Positions 46,801 through 63,400 of a stretch of DNA of 64,000 nt are shown in pieces. The stretch lies in assembly GCA_964252035.1 (NCBI GenBank), contig OZ176204.1; one strand, written 5' to 3'. Each line of letters opens with the position of its first letter. The stretch's first letter is position 1. Source of the DNA: Podarcis erhardii (Eukaryota). Position numbers: made by a program.

Positions 46801-49800
46801 GCTATGTAGGTAGAAATCACGTCCCTTGCACACTACCACCTCCCACCTTCATCCCCAACGGTACCTTCAAGGGGTGTATTGATGAGGATAACTCTTCCCA
46901 TGGGGGACGAGGTGCGGTAGTCCCGAAGGTTCCCATTCAGGAGCCGGTTCTGCCTGCTCAGCAGGAGGCGATTGGCAGTGCTGATGTCACTGCTGGAGCC
47001 CCGGGAGTGAGTCGGGTAAATGATTTCGCTCTGGAATGAATCAGGAGTGTATGCCATGGCAGGACAGGGTGCTGGTTATGCACAGAAGGACTCTCGCTGT
47101 CGGGTCTCTTGATGGGTTGGAGAAGCACACTGCGCTTGGGCCTGATTCCTTCAGGAAAGTTGGGCGAGTTTGTTACATTTTGGCCCCTTAGGTTGCTTCC
47201 CACCAGCGGAAACCGTTGCTGGACATGTTTCCATCAATCATAGTATTACCTCTCGTAGACTCATTTTGTTGTTGTCGATGGTGATGTTACCACTGAGGAT
47301 TGTCCTTAGGAAAATTCACCTATTTTTAAAATGCAGGATCCAATGAAAACATCTTGCCTCTCATGGGTTTAGATTCATGCTCTTTCTCTGTCTTCCAGAC
47401 ATGTATTCTGTAATAATAGTAGTAGTGATGGTAGTAGTAGTAATACTATCATTTTTTTACCCTAAAGCCTTTAGTCAAATTTAAGCCCTATGCACATTTA
47501 ACTGGAAGCAATTCCCATTGAATTAAACAGGACTTATTTCTATGTAAATAAGTTTAGGATGGCTGCATGGATTTCTTTTGAGTTTGTGGTGCAACAAGAA
47601 CATGTTTTATGGCACTCCAGAAGTCTCCTTGACAAGGGAGCATACCCTCAGTCAGTCCCTCTAGTACCTGAACTTTTGAGGACAGTCATAACAATATTTT
47701 TGCACTCACAAGGTTGAGAAAATGAAATTTAAAAAAATGAAATTTGTGGCTGGCAGAATTTTTACAAAAATATTACTACCTTTCACACAGTGCTCACTGC
47801 ATCCACTCTTTGAAGTTAGGTGTGTGTGTGTGTGGGGGGTTTCTAATGCTAATTCAACAGTTTCAGACATGAAGGCACTTCATATTTATTATCTAAGCAA
47901 TATGGTGGATGAAGACATTTTTACAGTAAGACATAAGCATGTTGCAAACATTGTTTGAAACATTTTCATTGTAGTGGGACTGTTGTGTTCCATGGAATTT
48001 ATGTAGAATAAAAAGCAGGAATAATATTGTTTGACTATGGCTGTCCTAGCTAAATGTAGAAAAATTAAAGCTGAAAAGAAAATGGATCAGATTCTTTTCC
48101 TTCCAGTGTCACAGTGTGATTCTATTTTAGCACTTTTAGTCTAAAAACATCTGTTGATTTCAGTGATGTATCTCCAGGTTTATGGCTTGGCAATTTAATA
48201 GAATCATATCATTCTAGACTTAGAAGGGACCACAAGGATCATCTAGTCCACCCCCTTGCAATGCAAGAATCTTTCACCCACGCCCTGAGATTCAGAGCCT
48301 CATGTGCTCTACCGACTGAGCTATCCCAACCAAATCTTCCTGGTTTGCACAGCGTGACTGGATATGCACTTGTTCAGCTGAGACCAGAAGTAACCCTACC
48401 TTGATATGCTTATATTTCTCAATATTCTTACCGCTTAAGAATTACACTAGGGTGGCTTGAAGTGGGTACACTTGTTTACAGTAGCCAGTGCCAAGCTGAA
48501 ATGCTTTCAGCTTGCTGTATAGATAAGAAAATAATAATTTTCTTTTCTTTTTTTAAAAAAAATAAAATTCAGAAACTTTTAATGAATTGCCCAAAAAACT
48601 AATACTTTTTAGAGCTTTGCTTGTAAATAACTCGAGATGCTGCAGGAATTCTGCTTTGATCTCTTAATGCTCTCTGCTGAATATCCTGGAAGCTTTGCAT
48701 TCCACCCAGTATAAAGCAGTATGCAACAGCCAAAGCTTTTGCTCATTGTAACATTCTCAATAAGAAGCCTTAAAAGAGACTATGTCCCAAGCGTGGGCAT
48801 TTGTTCCTCTACATGGCTGTTCAGTCCTGGAAGATCTCTCTGCTTTTGCTATGTAATCACTCAGGGGAAGAGAGGGGGATTTTCCAGCTTACTCTGCATC
48901 ACTGATACGCAAGCCCCAGTCTCCCCCCCCCCCCGCCGCCGTTTCCTTGCCTGCACATTAGCTGGAATGAAGCCTGCGTGCGGAGTGACCTGACCTTAAT
49001 AAATAAGTGATGTCATCTCTTCCATTAGAGATACAGCACGGAGGCGGGGACCGCAGAAACCCTTGTGGGAGAGGACAAGATATGGGGCACGCCCCAATTC
49101 TGATACAAGGCCACTAGTCGGCAACTTCTCAACAACCGTCGCTTCTGCTCCAGTGTGAGTGGAGCGGGATGTTTCAGCACCTTGGACAGGTCTCCCGAAA
49201 GCACCTGCATTAAATTGCATCCTGCTACCTGCAGGTAAACCTTCTCATGCCTAACGCCCTTGTTCTACCTGGCAACTCTCTCTGACCTAGCACAAAATAA
49301 TCTACAGACAGTAGAGAGACGAAAAGGGAAGGGTGACCCGCTCAGAAATGCAATTAACCCCTGATTAACATACCCCTCCCATGCCCCCCTCACCTGTTTC
49401 CATGTTGCTCTGCAAACTTCCTCACCTGGGACAGACACACAGTTGAGCCTGCAAACCTGGTGGCTGCTAGAGGTACCTATCACCCCCGTCACATGGATTG
49501 GCTGGTCAAACCAGGAACAAGACCTCTCATAGGTCAGAAGAGCTGTCAGTTATTCACAGCACTTCCTCGTTGTATCTCTTGTGAAGGGAAGGGGGGAAAC
49601 TCAGCAGGTGTGTTTCTGGACTTGTAACAAGCAGAGAAGAATGGAAGCAGCTCCAACAGAGAACATTATTAGGACTATCCATTTGTTCTGCAGTCAAAAT
49701 GAACAGGTAACGGCATGTGATTGCTGAAGAGGGATGTATCCTCCCCAATCTAAAATGGCTTATGTGTGTTAATTACTGGAAGCAATTTTTTAGATATCAA

Positions 49801-60488: not shown

Positions 60489-63400
60489 ATAATTTTATTA
60501 TTTATACCCCACCCATCTGACTGGGTTTCCCCAGCTACTCTGAGCGGCTTACAGCATATATTAAAAATTGTAAAACATCAGACATTAAAAATTTCCCGAT
60601 ACATACCTAATGAAATCAAACCCCAAACCTATAAACATCCCTTTCCAATGTCTACTCATAGTTACGCTTGTATTCTCTGCAAGATGTATGAGAGATATAT
60701 GGACACAACAGGAAATGTTTTTGGACGGTATGGGGTCAGACTTAGGGGGCTAATAAATAAACTCTTCTCTTGTTAGGCTTTCCATGAACCCCATCTGCCT
60801 AGCGTACAGCCCTTCATATACTGTAACGCAATTGCAAAATCAAGCTTTGGACCAAAAACACAAAGTGAGGAATGTGAGGCTTGCTAACACGGGCTGGATC
60901 AGAGGAGTCAGAAGATTGATATTGTGTCCTGCAACACAGGTGCTTTTTTTGGAAGCAATGTGCCTCCCTCTAGGTTGGTGCACCGGACCCCTTTTCTTGG
61001 ATAGTGGGAACCCTAACACCACATTTTGCAGCTGAAATAATGGGGTGATCCTGCATCACCAAGAACATTTCTTTTCACTCACCCTCCTGAGATAGTTGAA
61101 ATTACTAAACAGACTTTCCTAGGGGGTAAAAAAGAAGGCAATATCATGAGTCTTTGCACATGAGCACGGAATCCACCAATTTTTGAAATGGGAAAATGAT
61201 ACCCCAAGCACTCCCTCCAGAATTCTTAGGGATGGAGCCCTTCCCCTTGGAACAGTGGAATCCTTGTGTACATGCTCATTATAAGATCTAGATTCCAAAG
61301 CACACCTTATTCTGCTCTAGGCCCTTTCCCTTGCAAGATCCTACTCACCTGGTTGTGTCATGATGCTGAGAGTCGTTCTCTCACATGCCTACCACAGATT
61401 TGGGATTTATCTCAAGGAACCAGCAAGGCAAGGGTATTAATATACCAGGAACGATGGCCCCAGGGGGCAACTTGGGCCCACCCCTACCAGCATAATCAGG
61501 GGCAGGGAGATCAGGATTTCCATATCCTTTCTCCTCCACTCCCTGCTCTCATCCTCGCCTGGTGTTTAAATGTCTCTTTGTAAGCTAATGGGATTTGAAT
61601 AGAAAGGGCTGGGGCTTTAATAATGTATACCATCTAGCAATGGATGGGAAAACAAGTACATTTCTTTTACATTAACTGTTGTGAGCAGAACAAACAAGTA
61701 AGCAATTTCCATGAGGTGGTTATATCCCACCAAAGAAACATTGGAATGTTTCCTTTTGAAATATATCCAAATAGTAGACATACATGTTTTAAATCATTTT
61801 ATTTTTATTTAAAATAATATTTCCAAAAATATCTCATGGTCATCAGTACATGTTTCATGATTGTATTCTAAATCACACTAGAACATAAATACCAACAAAG
61901 CAATAAATCACATTGTTTTTGGTCTATTTCAGCTGAAAAAGCTATCCATGCATAACAATGTAACAATTCATAGATTACCACTAAAGTAAAGGGTACTACA
62001 AGTATTAAGCATTTCTACCATGATATTGTGATTAATTCGGCTAAAGATATTTTCACATTGAGATGTCATGAATTCATACACGTTTGTCACACAGCATCTA
62101 AGAAATGTTCTGGCATTTGTTACAAATTCAGTAAACAGCAGCCCATTCCTGACATCTGATCTCAGATGGGACCCTATGCCATATCCCACTCCTTATAAGA
62201 ATGTCTCCTTGGCCATCCTGGCTGGGGCTGATAGGAGTTGTAGTCCAAAACGTCAACGCTTCTGCTTCTTCTGCCCTAATTTATGCTTCTCATGCGAGGC
62301 CATTCCATTCCACTGCATATGCAATAATATATTTTATCCATGGACTCTAGAGACTCAGCTAGCTCCTCTCGCAGGTCCTGTTACAGGTCACCTGTATCCT
62401 GACTGCCAGCTTACTCTGAGCAAGCTGTTAAGAAACAAAGCTGACCCCCCCCCCACTCCGCCGCCCCTTCCAATCAAATTCTGCTGCGGGGGGTGGGTCG
62501 TACAATTGCCTGTTTTAAAGAGCAGCGAAGGAAGGAAATACTCTGCACATGTTCAAGGGCACTTTCCCCTAGCATCTCGCCCATTCCAGGGCCGGAGACG
62601 GGTTACTGGAGAAGCAGGCCCGCAGGGCTGCACCTGGGTCCTGCTACAGGTTTCATACTTAAAACATGGACAGCTCCGGCCGATTGCCAGTGAGTGAGCG
62701 GGGCAGGATCGGACCGCCAAAGCCTGTGTCAAGCGGCACGTAGTGCGCTCTGAAGGGGAGGCGCCCACCTTGCCTGCCGGGCGAGGAGCAAGGCAGGGAA
62801 AAGGCCGGCAGCCAGAGCAGCTGGCGCCGCCGCCGCCTCCTAATCCGATCCCCGCGAGGGCTGCCAGGGACAAGCCTCTTCCCTCCGCCCCTTCCAGGCA
62901 GCCCCACCCCGGCCAGTCTCCCGCCCGCTCCGCTTCCCGGCAGGCTCCGAGGAACTGGCTAGGCCGTAGCCCTGCCTCTTGGCCGGCTCTCCCTCGCCGC
63001 TCATTGGCTCTCGCCTCGCCAGGGGGGCCGCGACATTCGGGCGCCGTGACAAGCCAAGGAAGGGGCCGGCCTCGGGAAGCAGCCCAGCGCCGCCGTGTCA
63101 CAGCCGCCGGGCGACAGGGTTGCAGCCGCCACCGCCACTGCCGCCGCTCGGAGGAACAAGTGAGTTTCCTCTCGCAGGGATCGCGACCCAGCCCGGCCCT
63201 CCCCTCGCGGGGCGGGGACGCCTCCCGGCTCCATCCTCCGCTCTGCCTCGGGGCTTCTGGCGCCAGGATCTCCCTCGCCTTCTCCTCGCTATGCAGCCTC
63301 TCCCTTTCTCCCTCCACAGCCTGCGGATTACTCATCACACGTTCCCATCTCTCTCTCTCTCTCTCTCTCCTCCCCACCCCATGCCGCCCACTCCGCGCGC

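What the first reader, a model, noticed from the sequence alone, without database searches (positions are those of the whole stretch)
47058..62700. The otopetrin gene may be nested, same-strand, inside PDZD7 intron 1
Established (from memory): human PDZD7 starts with a non-coding exon at a CpG island shared head-to-head with SFXN3. Seen in sequence: the only strong CpG island upstream of the PDZD7 ATG (47057) is at 62.6-63.6 kb, and the whole otopetrin gene lies between them on the same strand with its own AATAAA at 50280. Inference: either PDZD7 pre-mRNA must read through a complete gene and its poly(A) site, or both genes share a promoter and first exon and are chosen by alternative splicing and polyadenylation. 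The second option would couple a hair-cell scaffold to a proton channel.
Basis: partly seen in the sequence, partly recalled or inferred. Interest (0 to 1): 0.65.

Follow-up and report, generated by a model that had tools for sequence, protein, structure and literature searches.

The report
Otopetrin gene upstream of lizard PDZD7
In a wall-lizard-like genome an intact proton-channel (otopetrin) gene lies head-to-tail between the hearing gene PDZD7 and the nearest strong CpG island, but nothing available here shows that it is nested inside PDZD7 or shares its promoter.

Summary
The window is lacertid lizard (Podarcis-like), not human, and has no N. The minus strand carries, in order:
- a 1.1-kb CpG island (62.6-63.7 kb);
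- an intact six-coding-exon otopetrin (ATG 59407, stop 50712-50710, AATAAA 50285-50280);
- a 3.2-kb CpG-poor spacer;
- PDZD7 (ATG 47057).

The interpretation rests on an untested assumption that PDZD7 transcription starts at the island. No transcript data were available. The donors at 62415 and 62392 are ordinary: 27 comparable sites lie in 4.4 kb.

A third option was overlooked, a PDZD7 leader inside the spacer:
- The ~170 nt before the ATG are conserved in two other squamates.
- A weak CpG patch at 48.9-49.2 kb holds a 65-nt twin of the island's edge, including the same donor-like site.

The otopetrin probably has spliced non-coding leaders. Three submitter annotations fuse the two genes, with discordant junctions.

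Verdict: most likely a plain tandem pair. Nesting or a shared first exon stays possible (about 0.2-0.3). The otopetrin belongs to an undescribed fourth vertebrate clade.

The parts
62601..63700 (.). Strong CpG island. Presumed promoter of the plus-strand neighbour (SFXN3 by recalled synteny), possibly bidirectional.
   Evidence: 10 consecutive 200-bp windows pass GC>=0.5 and o/e>=0.6. GC skew changes sign near 63.45 kb, though purine microsatellites contribute to that.
62406..62471 (-). Copy A of a 65-nt element (GGAA..GGCGGCGG, G-run, then CAGA|GTAAGCTGG).
   Evidence: Donor scores are 5.2 bits (62415) and 7.3 bits (62392).
59435..59480 (-). Two candidate 3' splice sites for a non-coding otopetrin leader. 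Exon starts would be 59478 (7.1 bits) and 59435 (6.5 bits).
   Evidence: The P. muralis RefSeq v2 protein P0094 starts at the codon aligned to 59476-59474, 2 nt after the AG at 59480-59479. TATA-like words at 59561-59556 and 59544-59538 were read by eye.
59158..59407 (-). Otopetrin coding exon 1 (ATG 59407).
58091..58227 (-). Otopetrin coding exon 2.
57249..57307 (-). Otopetrin coding exon 3.
56239..56366 (-). Otopetrin coding exon 4.
53812..54731 (-). Otopetrin coding exon 5 (306 whole codons).
50710..50940 (-). Otopetrin last coding exon, with stop TAA at 50712-50710.
50280..50285 (-). Otopetrin poly(A) signal AATAAA.
47058..50279 (-). 3222-nt spacer between the otopetrin poly(A) signal and the PDZD7 ATG. 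GC 0.42, CpG o/e 0.25.
48901..49200 (.). Weak CpG patch in the spacer. Candidate PDZD7 promoter.
   Evidence: GC 0.56, o/e 0.64, 15 CpG. GC-box-like, CRE-like and AGGTCA-type words were read by eye; those motif names are recalled.
48884..48946 (-). Copy B of the 65-nt element. Donor-like site with last exon base 48893.
   Evidence: Donor score 5.2 bits.
47147..47206 (-). Block upstream of the PDZD7 ATG that is conserved in other squamates. It ends at candidate acceptor 47148 (4.9 bits) and holds an ATG-TAA start-stop at 47178.
   Evidence: The linker of P0010 aligns to 47206-47102 at E=1.8e-7. The unnamed genomic ORF P0071 aligns to 47189-47058 at E=0.036.
46865..47057 (-). PDZD7 first coding exon. 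It corresponds to human 'exon 2'.
22013..45025 (-). Remaining PDZD7 coding exons (14 in the P. muralis model, plus an optional exon at 32486-32391).

Best explanation
This is a head-to-tail tandem of two separately transcribed genes, not a demonstrated nesting.

Otopetrin. It is an intact member of a fourth vertebrate clade. It is probably transcribed with one or more spliced non-coding leaders that join the ATG exon at 59478 or 59435. The leader may come from the minus-strand side of the CpG island or from a TATA-like site near 59.5 kb. Transcription ends at a canonical poly(A) site (50285-50280).

PDZD7. It most likely starts from its own leader inside the 3.2-kb spacer. One candidate is the weak CpG patch at 48.9-49.2 kb, with a donor at 48893 spliced to about 47148. 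The other is a start directly within the conserved ~170 nt before the ATG.

Shown here: gene order, strand, intactness, the splice sites of the coding exons, the poly(A) signal, CpG content, the 65-nt twin and the upstream conservation.

Inferred: every transcription start and every non-coding exon.
For: 1. Separate models. At least 15 squamate species carry separate otopetrin and PDZD7 models. 27 of 30 listed PDZD7-like N-termini begin at the Met equivalent to 47057. The exceptions are P0071, P0074 and P0088.

2. Upstream conservation. The sequence before the ATG is conserved in an agamid (P0010 linker, 47206-47102, E=1.8e-7) and in an unnamed squamate genomic ORF (P0071, E=0.036). That fits a UTR and proximal promoter next to the ATG.

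3. The 65-nt twin. The spacer has a weak CpG patch. Inside it lies a 65-nt twin of the island's lower edge, with the identical 13-mer around a donor-like GT. It ranks 1 of 1258 window comparisons: score 25.5 against mean 11.4, sd 1.9 and next best 20.5. Both sub-motifs are unique to these two sites.

4. Poly(A) site. The otopetrin ends with a canonical AATAAA, with TGTA upstream and a GT-rich stretch downstream.

5. Island donors. 27 donors above 4 bits lie in 59.6-64 kb and 24 lie in the spacer. The 19 verified donors have a median of 8.7 bits.
Against: 1. Human PDZD7 has a non-coding exon 1 (PMC9204979 Table 1). By recollection it abuts the SFXN3 CpG island. If that position is ancestral, the lizard leader would sit at 62.6-63.7 kb and the otopetrin would be intronic.

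2. The island is the only strong one upstream. The 48.9-kb patch is one of three weak non-exonic patches.

3. Three submitter annotations fuse the genes: Phrynocephalus P0010, Ophiophagus P0015 and Naja P0128. That could reflect read-through RNA.

4. The flanks of the 65-nt twin are not similar: 143 of 1296 and 194 of 1298 background windows reach the flank scores. It may be a repeat fragment.

5. Nine ATGs lie at 47178-47402. A long unspliced 5' UTR is therefore unlikely.

6. My splice scores use a matrix written from recalled consensus frequencies.
Confidence: 0.5

Rival explanations
1. True nesting. PDZD7 transcription starts on the minus-strand side of the CpG island. Intron 1 (about 15 kb) holds the complete otopetrin gene on the same strand. 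PDZD7 pre-mRNA ignores the otopetrin splice sites and poly(A) site.
For: The island is the only strong one upstream. Human exon 1 is non-coding and, by recollection, lies in the SFXN3 island, so a simple loss of the intronic gene in mammals would explain the human layout. Donor-like sites exist at 62769 (8.6 bits), 62392 (7.3) and 62415 (5.2), and acceptors at 47407 (6.6), 47148 (4.9) and 47304 (4.2). The minus strand is G-rich from about 63.4 kb downward.
Against: No transcript evidence. 13 AATAAA and 9 ATTAAA lie on the minus strand between the island and the ATG, including the otopetrin's own canonical site. The donors are not distinctive. The conserved block and weak CpG patch in the spacer offer a nearer start. 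No annotated protein shows an upstream coding exon from the island: N-terminal pieces of 46 relatives gave only noise there.
Confidence: 0.18
2. Shared promoter and first exon, in the style of the cholinergic locus. One leader at the island is spliced either to the otopetrin (59478 or 59435) or, skipping it, to PDZD7. The choice is coupled to use of the otopetrin poly(A) site.
For: The otopetrin ATG exon has good acceptors. Identical otopetrin proteins carry 2-4 RefSeq accessions in Pantherophis, Paroedura and Rhineura, which implies alternative untranslated exons. Mouse Otop2 uses four alternative non-coding first exons (PMC3038909, section 8). There is precedent in ChAT/VAChT (PMC3053374 passages).
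Against: Nothing places a leader at the island for either gene. TATA-like words at 59561-59538, together with P. muralis, Anolis sagrei and Pantherophis models that read contiguously upstream of the ATG, suggest a proximal otopetrin start as well. The twin element at 48.9 kb suggests two separate leaders rather than one shared.
Confidence: 0.1
3. Read-through (conjoined) transcription. Some polymerases that start at the otopetrin promoter pass its poly(A) site and yield chimeric or PDZD7-containing RNAs, alongside normal PDZD7 transcripts.
For: There are three fused otopetrin+PDZD7 models in GenBank (P0010, P0015, P0128). The two elapid models enter PDZD7 at the same internal point (…|DSSSDIS). 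The spacer is only 3.2 kb.
Against: The three models leave the otopetrin last exon at three different points (…FEVY|, …FYRMHS|, …LWAIV|), each just removing the stop codon, as ab initio merging does. The RefSeq and Ensembl models retrieved for the same clades keep the genes apart. A hint that Laticauda P0088 begins with otopetrin exon-5 residues is not significant: 41-75 of 300 shuffles reach the score on three snake proteins.
Confidence: 0.15

Closest known systems
Cholinergic gene locus (VAChT inside the first intron of ChAT)
   Same: One gene sits on the same strand inside the first intron of another. Multiple promoters and alternative splicing give both mRNAs (PMC3053374, abstract and passages).
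   Different: VAChT's reading frame is a single exon. Here the inner gene has six coding exons and 9 kb. More importantly, for ChAT/VAChT the shared structure is shown by transcripts, whereas here no transcript was seen.
Ush1g embedded in the first intron of Otop2 in rodents
   Same: An Usher-syndrome gene and an otopetrin are entangled through non-coding first exons. Mouse Otop2 has four alternative non-coding first exons and a non-coding part of exon 2 (PMC3038909, section 8).
   Different: The roles are reversed: there the otopetrin is the host. The genes are on opposite strands, the embedding exons are rodent-specific, and both the otopetrin paralogue and the Usher gene are different ones.
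OTOP1, OTOP2 and OTOP3 proton channels
   Same: Pfam Otopetrin domain. Exon 5 matches solved OTOP2, OTOP3 and OTOP1 chains at E=2.7e-33 to 6.6e-27.
   Different: It falls in a separate 46-row clade (SH-aLRT 100) of squamates, turtles, amphibians, sturgeons, bichirs and a chimaera. Identity to mammalian OTOP1 and OTOP2 over exon 5 is only about 30-36%.
Bidirectional CpG-island promoters; human PDZD7/SFXN3 head-to-head pair (recalled, not checked)
   Same: A CpG island lies upstream on PDZD7's strand, with a presumed divergent neighbour.
   Different: In the lizard, 15.5 kb and a whole gene lie between the island and the PDZD7 ATG. SFXN3 itself is outside the window.

Membership tests
Otopetrin family (Pfam PF03189) | Match to the Otopetrin profile above the curated cut-off (27.8 bits) | tested here: met
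   Exon ORFs were scanned one by one. Exon 5 scored 89.2 bits, exon 4 36.1 and exon 6 36.9. Exon 2 scored 21.9, below the cut-off on its own.
Otopetrin family (Pfam PF03189) | Intact reading frame across all coding exons | tested here: met
   1722 nt = 574 codons, GT-AG at all five introns, no internal stop. 562-566 of 571 codons match five lacertid proteins.
Otopetrin family (Pfam PF03189) | Twelve transmembrane helices and proton conduction | not tested
   No fold or assay was run. A joined model was deliberately not built.
OTOP1, OTOP2 or OTOP3 orthologue | Groups inside one of the three named clades | tested here: not met
   In a quick IQ-TREE of 61 rows, the window's exon 5 sits in a 46-row clade (SH-aLRT 100) apart from the 15 OTOP1, OTOP2 and OTOP3-like rows.
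PDZD7 orthologue | First coding exon and later exons match named PDZD7 proteins in order | tested here: met
   64 of 64 residues of exon 1 match Podarcis PDZD7. 15 exon matches lie in order from 47057 to 22013.
Same-strand nested gene (gene within an intron of a host gene) | A host exon upstream of the inner gene is joined in RNA to host exons downstream of it | not testable with these tools
   No transcripts, annotation tables or vertebrate genomes were available. Only splice-like words could be scored, and they are not distinctive.
Shared-first-exon locus (cholinergic-locus type) | The same non-coding exon is found at the 5' end of both mRNAs | not testable with these tools
   As above. Indirectly, two similar but separate 65-nt elements exist, one upstream of each gene.
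CpG island (200 bp or more, GC>=0.5, o/e>=0.6; criteria recalled) | Composition thresholds over 200 bp or more | tested here: met
   62601-63700 passes in 10 consecutive windows. 48901-49200 passes only marginally, in 2 windows.
Canonical vertebrate poly(A) site | AATAAA with a GT/T-rich downstream element | tested here: met
   AATAAA at 50285-50280, followed by tctggttggg and tctgttcagtcttg. Read; usage in RNA not tested.

The most novel reading that the evidence does not exclude
The lizard keeps an ancestral arrangement in which an Usher scaffold gene (PDZD7) and a fourth-clade otopetrin proton channel form one transcription unit. It would be driven from the CpG island shared with the divergent neighbour and sorted by alternative splicing and polyadenylation, as in the cholinergic locus. 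The 65-nt twin at 48.9 kb would be a duplicated copy of the leader exon that is taking over PDZD7 expression. Mammals then lost the inner gene. With Ush1g/Otop2, that would make two independent physical couplings of Usher genes with otopetrins.
Probability: 0.12. Interest if true: 0.65.

Novelty: new member of a known kind. Interest (0 to 1): 0.35.

Why it matters
If PDZD7 really started at the island, a hair-cell and photoreceptor scaffold and a proton channel would be co-regulated from one promoter. That would be a rare vertebrate case beyond ChAT/VAChT. It would also explain why human PDZD7 begins in a neighbour's CpG island.

As it stands, the finding is an ordinary tandem gene pair plus an untested idea.

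The more solid by-product is the otopetrin itself. It belongs to an old jawed-vertebrate clade with no mammal, bird, crocodilian or teleost among the 61 retrieved relatives. Databases name it inconsistently (OTOP1-like or OTOP2-like). I could not find it in the papers I searched: 'OTOP4' gave 0 papers, otopetrin + PDZD7 gave 1 irrelevant paper, and Hurle 2011 treats only the OTOP1 and USH1G-OTOP2-OTOP3 loci.

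Tried and rejected
1. Upstream coding exons at the island. N-terminal 70 residues of 46 relatives were run with tblastn against 59.4-64 kb. Only the stretch directly before the ATG matched (P0011 to 59440-59402, E=6e-4). Everything in the island was noise.

2. Alternative N-termini of P0088 and P0074 against 47.06-64 kb gave nothing significant. 'LSFYNIS' matches the end of otopetrin exon 5 at E=1.0. 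The alignment to snake otopetrins is reached by 41-75 of 300 shuffles, and by 19 of 300 on P. muralis. I dropped it as evidence.

3. Splice-site scoring to single out a leader. Candidates are too many to discriminate.

4. Extending the 65-nt similarity into its flanks. Not significant.

5. Self-comparison of the window for repeats. Only 48201-48328 and 59729-60009 in the regions of interest are repeated within the window, so the twin element is not an obvious window-internal repeat family. Rfam found only two tRNA-like hits elsewhere.

6. Accession or locus-tag order as a proxy for adjacency. 7 of 12 species lie within 2 numbers: P. raffonei, P. lilfordi, L. agilis, P. muralis, Eublepharis, Pantherophis and Phrynosoma. 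5 do not: Zootoca, Rhineura, Elgaria, Sceloporus and Pituophis. This is useful for adjacency but says nothing on nesting.

7. Fused models as proof of read-through. Rejected because the three exit points differ.

8. Literature. PDZD7 + SFXN3 gave 3 incidental papers, seen as a listing only. Searches returned nothing relevant.

9. Left out. 

10. Unchecked. The closed collections (metagenome contigs, viral contigs) were not used. The supplements of PMC3038909 list its lizard loci and could show whether that study saw this paralogue, but they were not available.

Full report
WHAT THE WINDOW IS

The window has no N. The largest otopetrin exon (53812-54731, minus strand) is 305 of 306 codons identical to 'proton channel OTOP1-like [Podarcis raffonei]'. 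The first PDZD7 exon is 64 of 64 identical to P. muralis and P. raffonei PDZD7. No listed lacertid protein is fully identical: 562-566 of 571 codons match. The source is therefore a Podarcis-like lacertid lizard. I take none of it for human.

CHECK OF THE OBSERVATION

The minus strand, read from high to low coordinates, carries four things.

1. A CpG island at 62601-63700. Ten consecutive 200-bp windows have GC>=0.5 and o/e>=0.6. The window as a whole has o/e 0.27.

2. An otopetrin gene. Pfam PF03189 matches four separately scanned exon ORFs. Mapping lacertid proteins gives six coding exons: 59407-59158, 58227-58091, 57307-57249, 56366-56239, 54731-53812 and 50940-50713, then TAA. The total is 1722 nt, or 574 codons. 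All five introns are GT-AG and there are no internal stops. AATAAA lies at 50285-50280, with TGTA upstream and a GT-rich stretch downstream.

3. A 3222-nt spacer (GC 0.42, o/e 0.25).

4. PDZD7, with ATG at 47057 and coding exons down to 22013.

A plus-strand LZTS-type gene (Fez1 domain, E=2.2e-70) ends at 17081, convergent with PDZD7. Its last coding exon accounts for the CpG-rich stretch at 16.6-17.2 kb. The stretch at 13.2-13.6 kb lies in another plus-strand ORF that I read as part of the same gene, though Pfam did not match it.

So the description is correct. SFXN3 is not in the window; its presence beyond 64 kb is recollection.

WHAT COULD NOT BE TESTED

I had no lizard RNA, no annotation tables and no vertebrate genomes. 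The only contig collection open is bacterial and archaeal. Everything below is indirect.

IS A LEADER EXON EXPECTED?

Yes. In human PDZD7, variants at codons 26-66 are listed under 'exon 2' and c.226+2 under 'intron 2' (PMC9204979, Table 1 passages). Its position against SFXN3 remains recalled; the PDZD7 + SFXN3 search gave 3 incidental papers, seen as a listing only.

For otopetrins, mouse Otop2 uses four alternative non-coding first exons. In rodents these put Ush1g inside Otop2's first intron (PMC3038909, section 8).

SPLICE SIGNALS

I scored all minus-strand GT and AG sites with a matrix written from recalled consensus frequencies. I calibrated it on 19 donors and 19 acceptors verified by protein mapping. 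Verified donors have a median of 8.7 bits (range 1.6-11.8). Verified acceptors have a median of 6.9 bits (range 2.7-13.4).

- 27 donors above 4 bits lie in 59.6-64 kb and 24 lie in the spacer, so these two are not more than chance gives.
- Upstream of the otopetrin ATG the acceptors are 59478 (7.1), 59435 (6.5) and 59495 (5.1).
- Upstream of the PDZD7 ATG the acceptors are 47407 (6.6), 47148 (4.9) and 47304 (4.2).

THE OTOPETRIN'S 5' END

Several database models bear on this.
- The updated P. muralis RefSeq protein (P0094, 597 aa) starts at the codon aligned to 59476-59474. That is 2 nt after the AG of the 59478 acceptor. The codon is ATA in this window.
- An Ensembl model (P0097) starts at the in-frame ATG at 59536.
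- Anolis sagrei and Pantherophis 'X1' models also read contiguously upstream.
- Identical otopetrin proteins carry four (Pantherophis X2), three (Paroedura X1) and two (Rhineura) RefSeq accessions. These are transcripts that differ outside the coding region.

I infer spliced, alternative non-coding leaders, plus perhaps a proximal start near the TATA-like words at 59561-59538. Nothing locates a leader at the island.

PDZD7'S 5' END

27 of 30 listed PDZD7-type N-termini start at the Met of 47057. The exceptions are a genomic ORF (P0071) and two Ensembl models (P0074, P0088). No upstream coding exon is therefore annotated.

The DNA before the ATG is conserved:
- The in-frame 'linker' of the fused Phrynocephalus model aligns to 47206-47102 (E=1.8e-7).
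- The unnamed genomic ORF P0071 aligns to 47189-47058 (E=0.036).
- Conservation is strongest at 47206-47147. That stretch ends in the candidate acceptor 47148 and contains a conserved ATG-TAA at 47178.

No ATG lies in 47058-47177, whereas nine lie in 47178-47402. This fits either a short UTR with a start near 47.15-47.2 kb, or an exon that begins at 47148.

The spacer holds a weak CpG patch at 48901-49200 (GC 0.56, o/e 0.64, 15 CpG). It is one of only three weak non-exonic patches among 638 windows scanned.

At its lower edge is a 65-nt element (48946-48884). The shared form is GGAA..GGCGGCGG, a G-run, about 25 diverged bases, then the identical 13-mer CAGA|GTAAGCTGG.

- blastn E=0.001 in a 2 kb x 3.2 kb comparison.
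- Local alignment score 25.5, rank 1 of 1258 windows on both strands (mean 11.4, sd 1.9, next best 20.5).
- Both sub-motifs occur only at these two sites.
- The flanks are not similar.

Each copy lies upstream of one gene's ATG exon. The distances are 2.9 kb to acceptor 59478 and 1.7 kb to acceptor 47148. This could be a duplicated leader exon, a shared regulatory module or a repeat fragment. I cannot tell which.

FUSED MODELS

Three submitter annotations join the genes: Phrynocephalus forsythii (P0010), Ophiophagus hannah (P0015) and Naja naja (P0128). They leave the otopetrin's last exon at three different points. The two elapid models enter PDZD7 at the same internal point. At least 15 species have separate models.

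Seven of 12 species have accession numbers or locus tags within two of each other. I read all this as proof of conserved same-strand adjacency in squamates. It is at most a hint of read-through.

WEIGHING

For a start at the island:
- it is the only strong island upstream;
- the human layout (recalled) points that way;
- the loss of one intronic gene in mammals is a parsimonious history.

For a start in the spacer:
- conservation next to the ATG;
- the weak CpG patch with the twin element;
- a canonical otopetrin poly(A) site that a host transcript would have to ignore;
- uniformly separate RefSeq models.

My estimates are tandem with separate starts 0.5, nesting 0.18, shared first exon 0.1, and read-through as a side product 0.15.

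COMPARISON WITH KNOWN SYSTEMS

Membership cannot be tested without RNA. Ush1g inside Otop2 intron 1 in rodents is a striking parallel, with roles reversed and opposite strands.

THE OTOPETRIN ITSELF

A quick IQ-TREE of 61 rows was built from the window's exon 5 plus 60 of the 61 hits. P0044 was left out, and the two fused models were cut to their otopetrin part. The window's gene falls in a 46-row clade (SH-aLRT 100) apart from the OTOP1, OTOP2 and OTOP3-like rows.

The clade follows the species tree: squamates, turtles, frogs, salamanders, caecilians, sturgeon and paddlefish, bichirs, and Callorhinchus. No mammal, bird, crocodilian or teleost member appeared among the 61 hits. That is not proof of absence. 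I found no paper naming this clade.

VERDICT

The arrangement is most likely an ordinary tandem. Interest is modest. The decisive check is a look at existing RefSeq exon tables or a 5'-end experiment.

Noticed in passing
window 50710-59407 (minus strand): The otopetrin belongs to a fourth jawed-vertebrate clade: 46 of 61 tree rows, SH-aLRT 100. Members are squamates, turtles, amphibians, sturgeons, bichirs and Callorhinchus. No mammal, bird, crocodilian or teleost appeared among the 61 hits. Sources call it OTOP1-like or OTOP2-like inconsistently, and 'OTOP4' occurs in 0 papers.
   Followed up: partly
window 62406-62471 and 48884-48946 (minus strand): A 65-nt element with a G-run and an identical 13-mer around a donor-like GT occurs twice, once upstream of each gene. 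It ranks 1 of 1258 comparisons and its flanks are dissimilar. Origin unknown.
   Followed up: partly
P0010, P0015, P0128 (database proteins): GenBank models in Phrynocephalus forsythii, Ophiophagus hannah and Naja naja fuse the otopetrin to PDZD7, with three different exit points from the otopetrin's last exon. These are probably annotation merges.
   Followed up: partly
window 11615-17081 (plus strand): An LZTS-type gene lies convergent with PDZD7. The Fez1 domain (E=2.2e-70) is in its last exon, 16389-17081, which accounts for the CpG-rich stretch at 16.6-17.2 kb. I read three further plus-strand ORFs (11615-12157, 12926-13615, 14947-15294) as its upstream exons, but Pfam did not match a family to them.
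   Followed up: partly
window 38701-39000 and 57501-57800: Two further weak non-exonic CpG patches, one in a PDZD7 intron and one in otopetrin intron 2. They could be internal promoters. PDZD7 is known to have short and long isoforms (PMC9204979 passages).
   Followed up: no
window 32391-32486 (minus strand): A 32-residue exon is present in the P. raffonei PDZD7 model (969 aa) but absent from the P. muralis model (934 aa). It is probably an alternative exon.
   Followed up: no
window 59462-59464, 59474-59476 and 59534-59536 (minus strand): In-frame ATGs or near-ATGs lie upstream of the otopetrin start. 59464 and 59536 are ATG here. 59476 is ATA here but ATG in P. muralis, whose RefSeq v2 protein starts there. 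N-terminal length may differ between close species.
   Followed up: partly
window 47176-47178 region (minus strand): A minimal start-stop (ATG TAA) sits 121 nt before the PDZD7 ATG. The surrounding words appear in the translated upstream sequence of two other squamates.
   Followed up: no
window 16136-16206 and 22251-22310 (plus); 48201-48328, 7517-7588, 56786-56845; 59729-60009 and 1235-1514: Two tRNA-like Rfam hits (39.5 and 29.2 bits). There are also short interspersed repeats, some tRNA-like by eye, and a 282-bp repeat with an internal 71-bp tandem duplication.
   Followed up: no
window 55299-55388, 56378-56432, 60448-60488, 63719-63749: Microsatellites: (TAA)30, (AAGG)14, (TAC)14 and (TCTA)n. 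The first two lie in otopetrin intron 4, and the (AAGG)14 array sits just upstream of the acceptor of coding exon 4.
   Followed up: no
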